Virus genome (UHGV): UHGV-0289455
Source: a virus
DNA length: 35,338 bases
Strand: one strand, 5' to 3'
Position 1 is the first letter of the stretch, and each line of letters begins with the position of its first letter. The translations under genes were made by a program, and so were the position numbers. Below, piece after piece: positions 1 to 4,737 of this stretch. Under the pieces are notes generated by a model, which saw nothing but the letters and a program-made list of their open reading frames with translations, did no database searches and was not told the origin of the DNA.

Positions 1-231
1 TCCTTTATATTCAATGCATTAAGTTTGTTTTTGAGTGGTTTTGCCGTTTAAGGTAACGACGTTATAGATCCTATCAAAATCAATCAATTCCATTCTGGTT
101 TTGGAGAAAGATTTTTCGAGAGCTTCGGTCTTTAACTAAAACTGATTGCGTATAATCCCAATACCCCTCCCCGACTATCTGAATGGTCGGGGAGGCACTT
201 CAAGCACAAAATATCATCCCTGCGCCGTTGA

Positions 232-498
232 TTACTCTGCAGGTGAAGTCGGCCACTCAATATCAGGTGCAGTTGATGTATCAACACGATTCAACAATAC
301 CCGATATTTATTCCATGCCTCCAGCAACGATCTTTCTTCCTCCGTTGCGATTTCCAGATCTACAGCATCCTGCAGTGGCGCAATATACTCACTGAATTCC
401 TGGATGTAGAACTGTGTGGTGACGGTCTTCCAGCCATTCGGCTCCTGCTGTATCGAAGCATACCAGGCTATTTCAATATCGCTATGCTGCGGCAGCAT
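232..498 (-). pseudogene. tfa: tail fiber assembly protein (Tfa) C-terminal fragment; 5' half missing
   Basis: Translation ...[47 protein letters not shown] matches the C-terminus of lambda Tfa as I recall it. The ATG at 496-498 is immediately preceded by an in-frame TAA, so no N-terminal half exists. Confidence 0.6.
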
Positions 499-554
499 TT
501 AACCCCTTGTAATTCATCGCCATAATTGATTTAATTCATAAATAAAACTATAAC

Positions 555-1223
555 ATGGTGAAATTAATGAAAAAAAACACAGATGATGGGGCTAAAATTT
601 ACACACCACTTACCCTAAAGCTTTATGACTGGTGGGTTTTGGGAGTATCAAATCGGCTTGCATGGGGATGTCCTACAAAGGAACACCTTCTTCCACACTT
701 TCTGGAACATTTAGGTAACAACCATCTGGATATTGGTGTTGGAACTGGGTTTTACCTTACTCACGTACCTGAGAGTAGTCTGATATCTTTAATGGATTTG
801 AACGAAGCTAGCCTGAACGCGGCATCTACAAGGGCAGGGGAATCAAAAATTAAACATAAAATTAGCCATGATGTTTTTGAACCTTATCCCGCGGCGTTAC
901 ATGGTCAATTTGATTCCATTTCCATGTTTTACCTTCTTCACTGCCTGCCTGGAAATATATCTACAAAAAGCTGTGTAATACGCAATGCGGCGCAGGCCTT
1001 AACTGACGATGGAACTCTATACGGAGCCACAATTCTTGGCGATGGAGTTGTGCACAATAGCTTCGGTCAAAAACTGATGCGCATTTACAATCAGAAAGGC
1101 ATCTTTTCAAACACAAAAGATTCCGAAGAAGGCTTAACACATATACTCTCAGAGCATTTCGAGAATGTTAAAACCAAGGTTCAAGGTACTGTAGTAATGT
1201 TTTCCGCTTCAGGGAAAAAATAG
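555..1223 (+). CDS. class I SAM-dependent methyltransferase (orphan cargo gene)
   Basis: 222-aa ORF with a glycine-rich SAM-binding motif (HLDIGVGTGFYL); no DPPY/NPPY motif seen, so probably not an N6-adenine DNA methyltransferase. GC looks lower than the flanking phage genes. The arrangement (tfa remnant, methyltransferase, tfa remnant) resembles tfaD-ybcY-tfaX of K-12 DLP12 from memory. Confidence 0.55.
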   Translation: MVKLMKKNTDDGAKIYTPLTLKLYDWWVLGVSNRLAWGCPTKEHLLPHFLEHLGNNHLDIGVGTGFYLTHVPESSLISLMDLNEASLNAASTRAGESKIKHKISHDVFEPYPAALHGQFDSISMFYLLHCLPGNISTKSCVIRNAAQALTDDGTLYGATILGDGVVHNSFGQKLMRIYNQKGIFSNTKDSEEGLTHILSEHFENVKTKVQGTVVMFSASGKK

Positions 1224-1224
1224 C

Positions 1225-1262
1225 ATCCAACCGCAGCACGTTCTTGCTTAAGACGTGCTGCG
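1225..1262. terminator. perfect 11-bp inverted repeat hairpin just after the methyltransferase stop
   Basis: ccgcagcacgt / acgtgctgcgg with an 11-nt loop. There is no clean U-tract on the plus side and a delayed T-run on the minus side, so its role (terminator vs recombination/RNA element) is uncertain. Confidence 0.35.
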
Positions 1263-1277
1263 GCATAATCCCAATGA

Positions 1278-1406
1278 TTACTCCCTGACAGGGTTCGTAG
1301 GCCACTCAATATCAGGTGCAGTTGATGTATCAACACGGTTCAGCAACACCCTGCATGCCTTCCATGCCGCCAGCAATGATGTTTCCTCCTTCGTTGCATA
1401 TACTGC
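1278..1406 (-). pseudogene. tfa: second tail fiber assembly (Tfa) 3' remnant, about 42 codons, no start codon
   Basis: Minus-strand frame reads [42 protein letters not shown]-stop, bounded upstream by an in-frame TGA. About 40 nt (roughly 1303-1340) are near-identical at DNA level to 272-309. Confidence 0.45.
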
Positions 1407-1415
1407 TCACCTTTT

Positions 1416-1709
1416 TCACCCACGATTAACCAACAGCCAGACCAGCAGACACGCCACCACCGGCACAGCAAAATCCATCAGGCTTGCCACATCCCATGCA
1501 CGTGGATCAAAACCGCCCCACCACGGCATGTTAATCCGCTTGCCATGCCCGAACATTTCAATCCAGCGATATTCTGCCTGGGTGTGTTCACGCGCAATGA
1601 AGAACGTACAACCGGCTATCGCCCCGTAAGCCCAGTTTCCGGTAAAAAGACCAGCCAGTACCTGCACCGCCACGGCACAAAGCGCATGAAGTATCGACGT
1701 GATATCCAT
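1416..1709 (-). CDS. small hydrophobic membrane protein, function unknown
   Basis: 97-aa ORF with 2-3 predicted hydrophobic helices. Good Shine-Dalgarno (GGGGAG) 4-5 nt upstream of the ATG; sits 9 nt after the preceding ORF. Confidence 0.5.
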   Translation of the reverse strand: MDITSILHALCAVAVQVLAGLFTGNWAYGAIAGCTFFIAREHTQAEYRWIEMFGHGKRINMPWWGGFDPRAWDVASLMDFAVPVVACLLVWLLVNRG

Positions 1710-1718
1710 CTGCTCCCC

Positions 1719-1997
1719 TTAAAACCACTCCCTTAGCGGGCGCTCTGGTGTAACCACCCACTCACGGAACACGGATTCATCAAAGCCATCGTCAAGAAGA
1801 CGAATATTAACAAAGTACCCTTCGTCTCGCGTGTATTCAGGCTCCCCGTCAGCAGAAACACCTGACTCACTGAACGTAAAACCAATCTCATCAACCAGAA
1901 CGGCATTCTGCAGCTCTTCGTCCTCTTCCCAGTTAAGTTTCCTGAGAAATGCCCTGAAATCTGCTTTATCACTGAAACGCAACGTGAAATCTCTCAC
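1719..1997 (-). CDS. hypothetical protein translationally coupled to side tail fiber (possible fibre chaperone/accessory)
   Basis: 92-aa acidic ORF whose start overlaps the stf stop (ATGA-type overlap at 1994-1997). No recognisable Tfa motif. Confidence 0.4.
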   Translation of the reverse strand: MRDFTLRFSDKADFRAFLRKLNWEEDEELQNAVLVDEIGFTFSESGVSADGEPEYTRDEGYFVNIRLLDDGFDESVFREWVVTPERPLREWF

Positions 1998-4057
1998 TCC
2001 ACAACCTCCCCAAGCTGCGCATCTGTTAGCTCTTTATGCCAGAGACGAAAATTCCTCACATGCCCAAATAAATGGCGTAATCCTGCTGTAGTTTGTCCAC
2101 CAATGCGAATGGTTGCTGTACTCCGGATATATTCCCATTTGGTTTTAGTTTCGCTGCTTAACTTACCGTTACTGACTACACATGTGGACCGTTCGGACTT
2201 TACCCGCATACCAATAAGCATTTTTTCCAGCCCGGCATTTTCATTTATTCGTCGGTCTGAACCACCTATATCACAATACGGAAAACCGTCGTACCCACCT
2301 GATGAACCAAACCCCATTACGATCCCCGCATCTGCCTGATGCCGGTATGTGTCAAAAACACGCGGTGCTGCATTTGGCGTTTTATACCAGTTCTTATGTA
2401 CCTCACAAAGAACCGTAAAAGGAAGATTATAAAGGTTATTCTTGATTGGGACTGTCACCATATCGCTTGCCCGCGTTGCCGGTGCCGTCCCCGTAACAAT
2501 AAAAGATGATGCGCCTGTACCAGCCTCAATCTGTGGAGTGGTTACATCGAGATAATCCCCTGATGTAACCATCTGCCCTGTATCCGGAGAATACTGGACA
2601 AAACCACCAACCGTATTTTCTGTTGTATCTGCTTTTAATGTAGCCTCAAAAAATATCCAGCCAGTTGCATCATCCTTAACAGACCTTGCTGTAACACGGC
2701 TTGTCTGACCTGTCTTGCTAATTATGCGGGTGGTAAGGTTCAGGTTTGCTGCTCCTATTGATGTCCTTACCTCCCCATCATAATGTTCAAATAAAATACG
2801 AACGGCGATATTATCAACTTCACTTTTTACCCGACAGGATATAGTTACATGCTTTTCGTCCCCTGAAGTATCAACCCCTCCGGTACTCGAATACAGTCCG
2901 ATAATGGTATGCGCTTTACTTGTACCAACAATCGAATCCTGTACGACAAACCGACCATAATTAAACCCGAAACTATCTGTGCCTGTTTCTGTAACGTCCA
3001 GTGAAGTTGACTTATTCCACTTCGAAGGGTCTGTACTGTTCTGGAAGAAGTTCGTTCTTTGTCCCTCAATAAGCAGGCCATCACACTCAAATCGCGGCTC
3101 ATTAATTTCCGCCGTTTTCAGTTCGCCAGATTTGTTGATATATGTTGCCGTTGATGCGCGACTGAAATTAACCTGTTTATCACTGGCAACCTGAACCACA
3201 TTATCACCAATCTTCACTTTTTTATAACCCGGAGAATAGCCCGTAATCATATCCAGCGAATCATTAAAGGGTATCCACACATCCGGCAGCGGCTGTAAAA
3301 CATATCTGTACGGCTCTGCTGTCTGGTTTGCGTATTCTCTGGCAGCATCTTCACTTGCTTTTGCTGCCGTCTGGCTTGCTGCCGATGCTTTCGCCGAGTT
3401 CGCCGCCGCTGTTTCGCTCACCTTTGCGTTGGCTTCACTGTCTTTGGCATTCGTCTCACTGGTTTTCGCTGCCGTCTGGCTGGATTTTGCGTTTTTTTCG
3501 CTGGCCTTTGTGGCTGTCTCGCTATTTTTCGCGCTGGTTTCTGATTTTTTGGCTGCTGTCGCGGAGTTTGCCGATGCAGTCTGCGAGGCCGCTGCCGCCT
3601 GTGCGCTGTTAGCTGCATTCGTTTCTGAGGTTTTCGCCGCATTCTTCGATGAGGCTGCTGCCGTTTCGGATTTCTTTGCCGCCGCTGCACTCTGTGATGA
3701 CGCTCCGGCATGACGTGCCACTTCATTCACCATCAGCTCAAAACGGCGCAGTGCCTCCGGACGAACATCATCCTCCGTCATGGCGCCGAGAAAATCATTC
3801 AGCGTACCTGGTCTGGAACCTTCATAGACGGTAATGGTCCCGGCATGTGAAGGCGGAAAATCTTCAACCAGCAGGGTGACGCTGTACTGGCCATACTCAA
3901 CATCCATGCTGTAACGCCCGGCTTCATCCGGATTTTCAGAGGCCACCGTGTTCACCACCACCGTGCTGCTGGTCCGTCTGGCCTTCAGCACAATGGTGCA
4001 GTTCTGTACTGGTTTTCCTGTGCCATCTTTAAGCACGCCAGAAATTTTTACTGTCAT
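1994..4057 (-). CDS. stf: side tail fiber protein Stf, chimeric: lambda-like N-terminus, Ala/Ser/Thr-rich repeats, LamG/concanavalin-like C-terminal domain
   Basis: N-terminus MTVKISGVLKDGTGKPVQNCTI...SHAGTITVYEGSRPGTLNDFL matches lambda Stf as recalled. The C-terminal 350 aa diverge and end in an ...FRLWHKELTDAQL motif typical of laminin-G-like jelly-roll domains. Confidence 0.85.
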   Translation of the reverse strand: MTVKISGVLKDGTGKPVQNCTIVLKARRTSSTVVVNTVASENPDEAGRYSMDVEYGQYSVTLLVEDFPPSHAGTITVYEGSRPGTLNDFLGAMTEDDVRPEALRRFELMVNEVARHAGASSQSAAAAKKSETAAASSKNAAKTSETNAANSAQAAAASQTASANSATAAKKSETSAKNSETATKASEKNAKSSQTAAKTSETNAKDSEANAKVSETAAANSAKASAASQTAAKASEDAAREYANQTAEPYRYVLQPLPDVWIPFNDSLDMITGYSPGYKKVKIGDNVVQVASDKQVNFSRASTATYINKSGELKTAEINEPRFECDGLLIEGQRTNFFQNSTDPSKWNKSTSLDVTETGTDSFGFNYGRFVVQDSIVGTSKAHTIIGLYSSTGGVDTSGDEKHVTISCRVKSEVDNIAVRILFEHYDGEVRTSIGAANLNLTTRIISKTGQTSRVTARSVKDDATGWIFFEATLKADTTENTVGGFVQYSPDTGQMVTSGDYLDVTTPQIEAGTGASSFIVTGTAPATRASDMVTVPIKNNLYNLPFTVLCEVHKNWYKTPNAAPRVFDTYRHQADAGIVMGFGSSGGYDGFPYCDIGGSDRRINENAGLEKMLIGMRVKSERSTCVVSNGKLSSETKTKWEYIRSTATIRIGGQTTAGLRHLFGHVRNFRLWHKELTDAQLGEVVE
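3330..3720 (-). repeat. low-complexity coding repeats inside stf (KxSETxA-type)
   Basis: Translation shows reiterated AAKTSETNA / AKNSETATKASEKNAK units. The long ORFs in other frames here (3418-3726 minus, 3429-3713 plus) are frame shadows. Confidence 0.6.
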
Positions 4058-4071
4058 ACTTTTCCACCAAT

Positions 4072-4102
4072 AAAAAAAGCCCGCAGCAGTGACGCCACGG
4101 GC
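4072..4102 (-). terminator. rho-independent terminator between lom and stf
   Basis: On the minus strand a GCCCG/CGGGC stem is followed by TTTTTTT, then the stf Shine-Dalgarno (GGTGGA) and ATG. Confidence 0.5.
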
Positions 4103-4208: not shown

Positions 4209-4737
4209 TCAGAAACGGTATCCGATACCAACAATAAATGCATCCGTTCGCCAGTCGCCACTACCGGAACCTTCATAAGCAATATCAATGGTCACGGATT
4301 CGGTCGGGTTAAACTGCACGCCAGCTCCCCACGCCAGAGACGTGTTGCTGTGGCGATCGTCATCACTTCCGGTCAGCACATCGTGCGTTTTCCCCTTGTT
4401 GTCAGTTACGCGGAGATAATCCCCGGAGAACGTCGACACACGGCTGTAAGCCACACCTGCCATCGCATAAGCACTGAACCATTCATTCACGCGCACAGAC
4501 GGCCCCGCCATTACGCTGAACCAGCGGTTACGCACGGAATCTTCATGCCAGCGTGTCCGTAAACTCATAACGGTATTTCACGTTAATCCCGTTCAGATCA
4601 TCGCTGCCAGGCATATCAGTATGGGTCTGAAGATACCCGGCGCTTAGTGTGGACTGATGCTCTGCTGCGCTCGCTGGCGTACCAGCGGCAACCAGCCAGA
4701 CTACTGCGGACAGAATAACAGCACATAATTTACGCAT
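4209..4737 (-). pseudogene. lom: lom outer-membrane protein, disrupted (internal deletion/frameshift)
   Basis: Two overlapping ORFs in different frames: 4543-4737 (signal peptide plus ...GINVKYRYEFTDTLA-stop) and 4209-4568 (...VMAGP...AYAMAGVA...IDIAYEGSGSGDWRTD...GIGYRF). Together they cover lambda Lom with a stretch of roughly 15 aa missing at the junction near 4545-4580. Confidence 0.6.

What the first reader, a model, noticed from the sequence alone, without database searches (positions are those of the whole stretch)
146..1406. Methyltransferase cargo gene flanked by directly repeated tfa 3' ends and hairpins
Two remnants of tail-fibre-assembly genes, both on the minus strand (232-498 and about 1278-1406), share a near-identical segment of about 40 nt plus the C-terminal peptide [18 protein letters not shown], and bracket a lower-GC SAM-dependent methyltransferase on the opposite strand. 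Each remnant is followed by a strong inverted repeat (164-198; 1225-1262) and an ATTGGGATTA decamer. This looks like a cargo cassette captured by recombination between tfa copies, the same kind of arrangement I recall for tfaD-ybcY-tfaX in DLP12. The methyltransferase lacks obvious DNA-methyltransferase motifs, so its substrate is open.
Basis: partly seen in the sequence, partly recalled or inferred. Interest (0 to 1): 0.5.

Follow-up and report, generated by a model that had tools for sequence, protein, structure and literature searches.

The report
DLP12-type ybcY methyltransferase moron between tfa ends
This is the intact version of the well-known tfaD–ybcY–tfaX module of E. coli lambdoid prophages: a small methyltransferase gene of unknown substrate, sitting between two leftover ends of tail-fibre-chaperone genes that act as recombination joints. 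It is real but ordinary.

Summary
Two minus-strand tfa 3' ends (232-498 and 1278-1397) share 101 nt at 85% identity, with a 38-nt exact core. They bracket an intact, low-GC class I SAM methyltransferase on the plus strand. Each tfa end is followed by a stable hairpin and the 11-mer ATTGGGATTAT.

It is not new. The methyltransferase segment occurs in 3838 of 5426 complete E. coli genomes and in active lambdoid phages (ev243, 2G7b, PhiR26_1).

In about 25 relatives the bracket is a 227-nt direct repeat (hairpin, 11-mer, tfa 3' end) on both sides. That fits capture or duplication by homologous recombination in the conserved Tfa C-terminal coding segment. Homology breakpoints across 88 loci cluster at 248-274, 1263 and 1351-1409.

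In this window the right copy is the scar of a later tail-fibre swap. The left copy's distal end, with its different hairpin, came from a third swap that joined a potB-specific att end.

The methyltransferase is under purifying selection (dN/dS about 0.1) and intact in 91 of 94 loci. Its closest structural matches are small-molecule methyltransferases, not DNA methyltransferases. It has stand-alone chromosomal homologues across Gammaproteobacteria. Its substrate remains unknown.

The parts
152..162 (-). 11-mer ATTGGGATTAT (minus strand), left copy. It lies after the left hairpin.
   Evidence: It occurs only twice in the window, with none expected by chance. In relatives the 11-mer directly follows the tfa stop (TAA-TC-ATTGGGATTAT) in more than 90 loci.
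166..195 (-). Left hairpin, a terminator-like stem-loop downstream of tfa'.
   Evidence: Arms are 13 nt at 92% complementarity. Energy is -24.2 kcal/mol, z = -4.98. There is no T-tract. The segment 140-232 is single-copy in 932 genomes, so it is not a dispersed repeat. The same sequence follows a full-length tfaR in strain Trh52.
232..498 (-). tfa' (TfaX-like), an 88-aa ORF. At the protein level residues ~36-88 match the conserved Tfa C-terminal domain and the first ~35 residues are non-Tfa; at the DNA level homology to tfa extends to about window 405, codon ~31.
   Evidence: Pfam Caudo_TAP matches profile positions 75-131 of 131. PHROG 2341 matches 88/88. PGAP annotates it as a partial pseudogene. 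Across 93 loci, 71 keep 86-110 aa and 22 are truncated, with four different C-terminal tails.
248..348 (.). Direct repeat, left copy (tfa 3' coding segment).
   Evidence: In 72 of 88 loci the homology to relatives ends at 248-252 or 274.
499..554 (.). AT-rich (25% GC) divergent intergenic region holding promoter-like sites for the methyltransferase.
   Evidence: The consensus scan finds TTAACC-16-CATAAT at 499-526 on the plus strand. TTGATT-17-TATAAC at 526-554 is the ybcY promoter listed for K-12 by genomic SELEX, with an H-NS flag (PMC3946193).
555..1223 (+). YbcY-type class I SAM-dependent methyltransferase. The ORF is 222 aa from ATG 555; the likely real start is ATG 567, giving 218 aa.
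   Evidence: It matches Pfam Methyltransf_12/23/25/11 and PHROG 2132. The AlphaFold2 model has pLDDT 90.4. The gene is intact in 91 of 94 loci, with dN/dS of 0.07-0.10.
1231..1263 (.). Right hairpin. It lies between the convergent methyltransferase gene and the late (tail) operon and is a conserved end-of-late-operon stem-loop of lambdoid phages.
   Evidence: Arms are a perfect 11 nt. Energies are -23.9 kcal/mol (plus strand) and -28.6 kcal/mol (minus strand). The same hairpin lies between tfa and sib/attP in HK97 and after the alpha/beta hydrolase gene in Trh52. In 25 relatives the homology ends exactly at 1263 and the next bases are TTT....
1265..1275 (-). 11-mer ATTGGGATTAT, right copy, 2 nt after the tfa stop codon.
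1278..1397 (-). tfa 3' remnant: 39 codons plus the stop as annotated, with no start codon. It includes the right copy of the direct repeat (1297-1397).
   Evidence: Pfam Caudo_TAP matches profile positions 95-130 of 131. PGAP annotates it as a pseudogene. The equivalent gene is a full-length 194-aa tfa in 25 relatives and a remnant in 41.
1398..4057 (-). Replacement tail-fibre module: a 97-aa ORF (1416-1709), a 92-aa ORF (1719-1997) and a 687-aa fibre (1994-4057). It is joined to the tfa remnant at 1397/1398.
   Evidence: The fibre hits Pfam phage_tail_N, and the two small ORFs match only PHROGs of unknown function. The same junction is present in phage ev243 (98.6% identity over 274-4084). 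Homology to phages with a classical stf-tfa pair stops at 1397.

Best explanation
Identity. The region is the right-arm ('b-region') end of a lambdoid prophage inserted in the 3' end of potB. It carries the DLP12-type tfa–ybcY–tfa' module.

The cargo gene. YbcY is a moron: a stand-alone small methyltransferase gene of chromosomal gammaproteobacterial ancestry. It has its own sigma-70 promoter region and reads convergently into the hairpin that ends the phage late operon. It is therefore most likely expressed from the prophage (inferred). During lytic growth it would be run over antisense by anti-terminated late transcription (inferred).

The enzyme. It is a functional class I SAM-dependent methyltransferase of the small-molecule or lipid type, not a DNA methyltransferase. 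Its substrate is unknown.

The flanks. The flanking tfa pieces are not functional parts of a cassette. They are the conserved Tfa C-terminal-domain coding segment, which is similar enough among otherwise different tail-fibre modules (about 85-90% over 100-230 nt) to serve as a homologous-recombination joint.

Proposed history (inferred):
1. One recombination event, either a Campbell-type single crossover or unequal exchange, placed the methyltransferase between a full tfa and a 5'-truncated duplicate, tfa'.
2. A swap at 1397/1398 replaced stf plus the tfa 5' part with a different fibre module.
3. A swap at about 251-274 replaced the hydrolase–ompT–att end seen in ev243 with a short potB-specific end.

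tfa' is decaying.
For: Identity:
- 100% identical to E. coli prophages at potB/potC. PGAP annotates partial tfa, class I methyltransferase, partial tfa, then tail fibre, lom and J.
- 96.4% identical over window 252-1397 to DLP12 tfaD–ybcY–tfaX.
- Present in 3838 of 5426 complete E. coli genomes and in active phages, where the order is stf, full tfa, ybcY, tfa', hydrolase, ompT, int.

Moron features:
- GC of 41% for the gene and 25% for the upstream spacer, against 53% for the window.
- Promoter-like sites, and SELEX-mapped constitutive RpoD binding with an H-NS flag in the K-12 ybcY/tfaX spacer.
- Stable hairpin 8 nt after the stop codon, followed directly by T-runs in 25 relatives.
- Dispensable: phage Ayreon lacks window 529-1187 but keeps both flanks.

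Chromosomal ancestry:
- 72 homologues at 50-75% identity in Enterobacterales, Pasteurellaceae, Pseudomonas and Xanthomonadales have no tfa flanks.
- They have no conserved neighbour across genera.
- Their GC matches the host in Pseudomonas, Erwinia, Yersinia and Proteus.

Functional enzyme:
- Intact in 91 of 94 phage-clade loci; dN/dS 0.07-0.10.
- Motif I DIGVGTG and the acidic residues D81 and D106 are invariant.

Recombination joints:
- 227-nt flanking direct repeats at 88.5% identity in L049-type loci.
- Breakpoints cluster at 248-252 (53 loci), 274 (19), 1263 (25), 1351 (12) and 1395-1409 (31).
- tfa' has four different C-terminal tails.
- The Tfa N-domain is variable and the C-domain conserved (PMC9608196, citing North et al. 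2019).
- Lambda recombining with Rac and Qin in stf–tfa homology has been shown experimentally (PMC3945230).

tfa' decay: 22 of 93 copies are truncated, against 3 of 94 for the methyltransferase.
Against: - No experiment here shows transcription, enzyme activity or a phenotype.
- The simple terminator scan found no T-tailed terminator in 1-2400. In this window the hairpin is followed by CATAATCCC on the methyltransferase strand.
- The two promoter candidates disagree, and the SELEX-derived -10 would place the transcription start inside the annotated ORF.
- Clustering of BLAST HSP ends marks where similarity stops. It does not prove that crossovers happened there.
- The order of events, and Campbell-type versus unequal exchange, cannot be resolved.
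- tfa' keeps an ATG, a good Shine-Dalgarno sequence (AAGGGG) and at least 86 codons in 76% of loci. A residual function is therefore not excluded.
Confidence: 0.8

Rival explanations
1. tfa' is not a scar but a functional mini-chaperone. In this view the Tfa C-terminal trimerisation domain on a new 35-residue N-terminus is expressed from read-through late transcripts. It helps fibres such as the 687-aa one in this window, which has no full Tfa.
For: The ORF has an ATG start and an AAGGGG Shine-Dalgarno sequence. Full-length PHROG 2341 is a family of 88-aa proteins. 71 of 93 loci keep 86-110 codons. The fibre module in the window has no Caudo_TAP protein of its own.
Against: 24% of copies are truncated at 11-68 codons, and about 20% have the Tfa C-terminus replaced by unrelated sequence after VDTS. 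K-12 tfaX is truncated. tfa' is present whether or not the phage has a full tfa. PGAP calls it a pseudogene.
Confidence: 0.12
2. The methyltransferase is a DNA or RNA modification enzyme, either an orphan anti-restriction methylase or part of a defence system, rather than a small-molecule enzyme.
Against: The sequence has no (D/N/S)PP(Y/F/W) or PCQ motif. At 218 aa there is no room for a target-recognition domain. The top structural and profile matches are PmtA, JHAMT, PEAMT, SgvM and other natural-product methyltransferases. No partner genes are conserved, and homologues are stand-alone chromosomal genes. The PADLOC hit is far below significance.
Confidence: 0.08
3. The two tfa pieces are what is left of an invertible tail-fibre switching segment (Gin/Pin/Cin type) that trapped a foreign gene.
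For: Some relatives carry a Pin-type serine invertase and a full tfa next to the methyltransferase block (L065). Such segments do contain two tfa genes.
Against: Here the two tfa ends are direct repeats, not inverted ones. No invertase is annotated anywhere in this prophage. No gix/hix-like core lies in the flanks. The 227-nt repeat in relatives includes the downstream hairpin, which is not part of invertible segments.
Confidence: 0.02

Closest known systems
tfaD–ybcY–tfaX of the cryptic prophage DLP12 (E. coli K-12 MG1655, b0561-b0563)
   Same: The genes, order and orientation are the same, as are the hairpin and 11-mer after the upstream tfa. Identity is 96.4% over window 252-1397 and about 99% across ybcY.
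   Different: In K-12, ybcY is a pseudogene (2-bp deletion at the start), tfaX is cut to 61 aa by a stop codon, and tfaD is full length. Here ybcY is intact, tfa' is 88 aa with a canonical Tfa C-terminus, and the upstream tfa is reduced to 40 codons. In K-12 the module is followed by appY and ompT. Here the att site follows directly.
Lambdoid phages ev243 and 2G7b (Nesevirus) and PhiR26_1
   Same: ev243 is 98.6% identical over window 274-4084, including the 1397/1398 junction to the same fibre module. PhiR26_1 shows the presumed parental layout: stf, full tfa, ybcY, tfa'.
   Different: To the left of position 274 these phages continue with a 101-aa tfa', an alpha/beta hydrolase, ompT, attP and int. 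The window instead has a canonical tfa end, a different hairpin and a potB att core.
Morons and cargo loci downstream of lambdoid tail-fibre genes (Hendrix/Juhala moron concept; 'exchangeable effector loci' of O157 prophages; both cited from my own knowledge)
   Same: The gene is an independently transcribed, compositionally distinct, dispensable gene in the b-region next to stf/tfa. The same slot holds cdtABC, ipaH-like LRR effectors, Mn-catalase with DUF892, a hydrolase or ompT in relatives.
   Different: The cargo is a metabolic-type methyltransferase rather than a toxin or effector. It is bracketed by a duplicated tfa end.
Small-molecule and lipid class I methyltransferases (bacterial PmtA, insect JHAMT, PEAMT, SgvM, MM_2633)
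   Same: The Rossmann-like class I fold, the SAM motifs and a size of about 200-270 aa. These are the best structural and profile matches.

Membership tests
DLP12-type tfa–ybcY–tfa' module | Nucleotide-level homology to K-12 b0561-b0563 across the methyltransferase and both flanks | tested here: met
   96.4% identity over 1146 nt, and near-identity across ybcY in the alignment.
DLP12-type tfa–ybcY–tfa' module | Order and orientation: tfa (late strand), methyltransferase (opposite strand), truncated tfa (late strand), at the tail-fibre end of a lambdoid prophage | tested here: met
   Annotation of the identical E. coli record and of DLP12.
Moron (independently transcribed extra gene in a phage genome) | Own promoter | tested here: inconclusive
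   There are two consensus-level candidates (window 526-554). RpoD SELEX binding has been reported in the K-12 spacer. No transcript data were examined.
Moron (independently transcribed extra gene in a phage genome) | Own terminator | tested here: inconclusive
   A strong hairpin starts 8 nt after the stop codon. It has no T-tract in this window. T-runs follow it in 25 relatives.
Moron (independently transcribed extra gene in a phage genome) | Base composition different from neighbouring phage genes; dispensable or absent in related phages | tested here: met
   41% GC against 53% for the window. The gene is deleted in phage Ayreon. HK97 has tfa, the hairpin and attP with no cargo.
Moron (independently transcribed extra gene in a phage genome) | Expressed from the repressed prophage | not testable with these tools
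   Needs RNA-seq or a reporter in a lysogen.
Class I (Rossmann-fold) SAM-dependent methyltransferase | Motif I GxGxG, an acidic residue at the end of beta-2, and a seven-strand fold | tested here: met
DNA methyltransferase (N6A/N4C or C5) | Catalytic (D/N/S)PP(Y/F/W) or PCQ/ENV motifs plus a target-recognition domain | tested here: not met
Tail fibre assembly protein (Pfam Caudo_TAP PF02413) | Both domains present: the variable N-terminal fibre-binding domain and the conserved C-terminal domain | tested here: not met
   Only profile positions 75-131 (left copy) and 95-130 (right copy) of 131 are matched. The domain roles are taken from PMC9608196 and North et al. 2019.
Invertible tail-fibre segment (Gin/Pin/Cin/Min) | Inverted tfa/fibre-tip copies, a serine invertase and 26-bp crossover sites | tested here: not met
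   The copies are direct. No invertase is annotated in the prophage. No crossover-site core flanks the block.
Phosphatidylethanolamine N-methyltransferase (PmtA) | Specific similarity to PmtA beyond the shared fold; phosphatidylcholine-forming activity | tested here: inconclusive

The most novel reading that the evidence does not exclude
YbcY could be a lysogenic-conversion enzyme with a specific, selectable chemistry. Examples would be methylating a membrane lipid head-group (PmtA-like) or detoxifying a small-molecule toxin or antibiotic. That would explain why an intact copy is kept under purifying selection in most E. coli prophage remnants, even where the rest of the phage has decayed. A weaker variant is that tfa' acts as a universal Tfa C-domain helper.
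Probability: 0.12. Interest if true: 0.45.

Novelty: already known. Interest (0 to 1): 0.15.

Why it matters
As a structure it adds little. The module is annotated in K-12 and sits in about 71% of complete E. coli genomes.

Two things have modest value.

1. It gives a clean, quantified example of a short conserved coding segment, the Tfa C-terminal domain plus the late-operon hairpin, acting as a recombination joint. Around that joint, tail-fibre modules, cargo genes and att/int ends are shuffled: three junctions lie within 1.2 kb in this window, and the same slot holds cdt, ipaH-like, catalase or hydrolase cargo elsewhere.

2. YbcY is among the most widespread prophage-borne enzymes of E. coli with no known substrate. 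It is intact and under purifying selection almost everywhere except K-12, the strain in which most genetics was done. That may be why it has never been characterised.

Tried and rejected
- Literature on ybcY, tfaX and tfaD. The only mentions are a SELEX promoter table, a no-phenotype remark and ompT context descriptions. The tfaX/tfaD search was swamped by unrelated acronyms. No paper on tfa-flanked cargo turned up.
- Guilt by association. No neighbour is conserved across genera among 72 chromosomal homologues. There is synteny only within Pseudomonas.
- Left hairpin as a mobile or dispersed element (a 65-nt 'insertion' between TAATC and the 11-mer). Rejected: it is single-copy and always follows tfa.
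- Hairpins as canonical intrinsic terminators. The scan found none.
- Invertible-segment origin. Rejected on orientation and on the absence of an invertase and crossover sites.
- Compensatory changes in hairpin variants. Only a bulge and mismatch variants were seen by eye. This was not pursued.
Full report
**1. What is in the sequence**

Window 1-2400 holds these features, from left to right:
- a hairpin at 166-195;
- an 88-aa ORF on the minus strand at 232-498;
- a 56-nt AT-rich spacer;
- a 222-aa ORF on the plus strand at 555-1223;
- a second hairpin at 1231-1263;
- a 40-codon open frame on the minus strand at 1278-1397 with no start codon;
- two small minus-strand ORFs (97 and 92 aa) and a 687-aa tail-fibre gene.

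The repeat finder gives a 101-nt direct repeat, 248-348 versus 1297-1397, at 85% identity. Pairwise blastn gives E = 5e-31. The exact core is 38 nt.

Both minus-strand frames match only the C-terminal part of Pfam Caudo_TAP. The plus-strand ORF matches Methyltransf_12/23/25/11.

Both hairpins fold about 5 standard deviations better than shuffles. The 11-mer ATAATCCCAAT occurs twice in 35 kb, with none expected by chance. The methyltransferase gene is 40.8% GC and the spacer 25%, against 52.8% for the window.

The two ends are not mirror images. On the late strand the right end reads stop, 11-mer, hairpin, while the left end reads stop, a different hairpin, 11-mer.

**2. Where it comes from**

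The window is 100% identical to E. coli chromosomes in which a lambdoid prophage lies between potB and potC. The 14-nt att core TGAATAAGAAGGTG lies 19-32 nt before window position 1 and again just before potC. The prophage supplies a new potB C-terminus. The finding is therefore the whole 'b-region' of this prophage: about 1.4 kb between the tail-fibre module and the att site.

**3. It is the DLP12 module**

K-12 DLP12 is annotated tfaD, ybcY (pseudogene, opposite strand), tfaX, appY, ompT.
- The window aligns to it at 96.4% over 252-1397 and is almost identical across ybcY.
- K-12 differs by a 2-bp deletion at the start of ybcY and a stop codon in tfaX.
- The methyltransferase segment (window 500-1264) is found in 3838 of 5426 complete E. 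coli genomes, always at 95% identity or more.
- Active phages also carry it. PhiR26_1 has stf, a full 194-aa tfa, ybcY, tfa', hydrolase and ompT.
- ev243 is 98.6% identical to window 274-4084.

**4. The flanks are recombination joints**

I fetched 80 viral contigs, plus genome loci, that carry the gene.
- Flanks: in the phage clade (95% protein identity or more), 45 of 60 viral loci with both flanks available have a Tfa C-domain on both sides. 14 have it only on the left and 1 only on the right. None of 72 chromosomal homologues at 50-75% identity has any.
- Breakpoints: the ends of the BLAST match that contains the gene cluster tightly. On the left they fall at 248-252 (53 loci) and 274 (19). 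On the right they fall at 1263 (25), 1351 (12), 1395-1398 (27) and 1409 (4).
- Longer repeat in relatives: in about 25 loci (for example L049) the flanking repeat is 227 nt at 88.5% identity. It comprises hairpin, 11-mer, stop codon and about 170 nt of tfa on both sides.
- Interpretation: this is the layout expected if a single homologous crossover, or an unequal exchange, inserted the gene next to a tfa. It leaves one full tfa and one 5'-truncated copy.
- Right copy: it is full length in 25 loci and a remnant in 41.
- Left copy (tfa'): it has four different C-terminal tails and is truncated in 22 of 93 loci. The methyltransferase is disrupted in only 3 of 94.

For this window I infer three joints:
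1. The original duplication.
2. A swap at 1397/1398 that brought in a fibre module without a Tfa. This junction is shared with ev243.
3. A swap at 251-274 that attached a canonical tfa end, another hairpin and a potB att end. That same left-hand sequence follows a full-length tfaR and precedes cdtABC in strain Trh52.

Two published results make this plausible:
- Tfa proteins have a variable fibre-binding N-domain and a conserved C-domain (PMC9608196, citing North et al. 2019).
- Lambda has been shown experimentally to recombine with the Rac and Qin prophages through stf–tfa homology of 88-96% (PMC3945230).

BLAST end-points show where similarity stops. They do not prove where crossovers occurred. 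The order and type of events are inference.

**5. The hairpins**

The right hairpin is not specific to the cassette.
- It lies between tfa and sib/attP in HK97, and in other lambdoid phages without the methyltransferase.
- It follows the hydrolase gene in Trh52.
- It is best read as the stem-loop at the end of the late operon, shared by convergent cargo genes.
- In 25 relatives it is followed directly by TTT... on the methyltransferase strand. In this window it is not, and the simple scan calls no terminator.

The left hairpin segment is single-copy in 932 genomes and always follows tfa. The idea that it is a small mobile element was dropped.

**6. The methyltransferase**

- Start codon: homologues start at M5, and a GGTGA Shine-Dalgarno sequence precedes ATG 567.
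- Conserved residues: motif I (DIGVGTG), D81, H105-D106, H129-C130 and an N-terminal YDWWVL...SN...W.C motif are invariant.
- Selection: dN/dS is 0.074 within the phage clade and 0.096 against the Citrobacter homologue.
- Structure: the AlphaFold2 model is confident (pLDDT 90.4), but its neighbours are a flat list of small-molecule and lipid methyltransferases. They include PmtA, JHAMT, PEAMT, SgvM, MM_2633 and Coq5, with TM about 0.6, Z no higher than 18.7 and identity no higher than 21%.
- Not a DNA methyltransferase: there is no DNA-methyltransferase motif and no room for a target-recognition domain. PADLOC finds nothing meaningful.
- Chromosomal homologues: they are monocistronic, with no conserved partner across genera. 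Their GC matches the host in Pseudomonas, Erwinia, Yersinia and Proteus. The phage gene was therefore most likely captured from a chromosome.
- Promoter evidence: a K-12 genomic SELEX study lists divergent constitutive sigma-70 promoters and H-NS in the ybcY/tfaX spacer (PMC3946193). The listed ybcY hexamers are at window 526-554, and the consensus scan prefers 499-526.

Taken together, this is a moron encoding an active small-molecule-type methyltransferase. I infer that it is expressed from the prophage and overridden by antisense late transcription during lytic growth. The substrate remains open.

**7. Verdict**

The features are real, and the DLP12 parallel is exact. 'Cargo between recombining tfa ends' is a fair description once the separate histories of the two ends are recognised. 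It is an already known, very common module. The remaining open question is what YbcY methylates.

Noticed in passing
just left of window 1 (L003 704-717 and about 47272-47285): The prophage is integrated in the 3' end of potB. A 14-nt core, TGAATAAGAAGGTG, is repeated at both ends. The phage supplies a replacement potB C-terminus (...LNKKVSELDD*) that ends exactly at window position 0.
   Followed up: partly
window 1416-1709, 1719-1997 and 1994-4057 (minus strand): The 687-aa tail fibre (phage_tail_N) has no Caudo_TAP chaperone. It is followed by 92-aa and 97-aa ORFs that match only PHROGs of unknown function. The 97-aa one looks like a membrane protein. What assembles this fibre is unclear.
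   Followed up: partly
window 1168-1305 (minus strand): A 45-aa ORF spanning the hairpin is annotated in RefSeq as 'hypothetical protein' or even 'nucleocapsid protein'. It is almost certainly a spurious call over the terminator.
   Followed up: no
L019 3371-3706 (phage Ayreon): Window 529-1187 (the promoter -10 region through most of ybcY) is cleanly deleted, while tfa', the last 36 nt of ybcY, the hairpin and the tfa end remain. This is a natural ybcY knockout in an active phage.
   Followed up: yes
L032 5428-7380; L104 4985-7966; L016 1562-3662; L065 3147-4410: The same slot carries other cargo in relatives. L032 has two DUF892 proteins plus a Mn-catalase between the hairpin and the tfa remnant. 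L104 has an IS-disrupted ipaH-like T3SS LRR effector. L016 has cdtABC. L065 has a Pin-type invertase with a full tfa.
   Followed up: partly
L102 and L111: Contigs binned as a Bacillus sp. MAG and a Planococcaceae MAG carry the E. coli phage ybcY block at 100% identity. This is most likely contamination of the bins.
   Followed up: no
window about 4209-4737: The lom (Ail/Lom family) gene next to the fibre is annotated as frameshifted in the identical RefSeq record.
   Followed up: no
window 401-480, as seen in L017: In one relative PGAP calls a frameshifted DinI-family fragment on the plus strand over the 5' part of tfa'. L104 has an intact 82-aa DinI-like gene just beyond tfa'. The non-Tfa N-terminus of tfa' may overlie older cargo remnants.
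   Followed up: no
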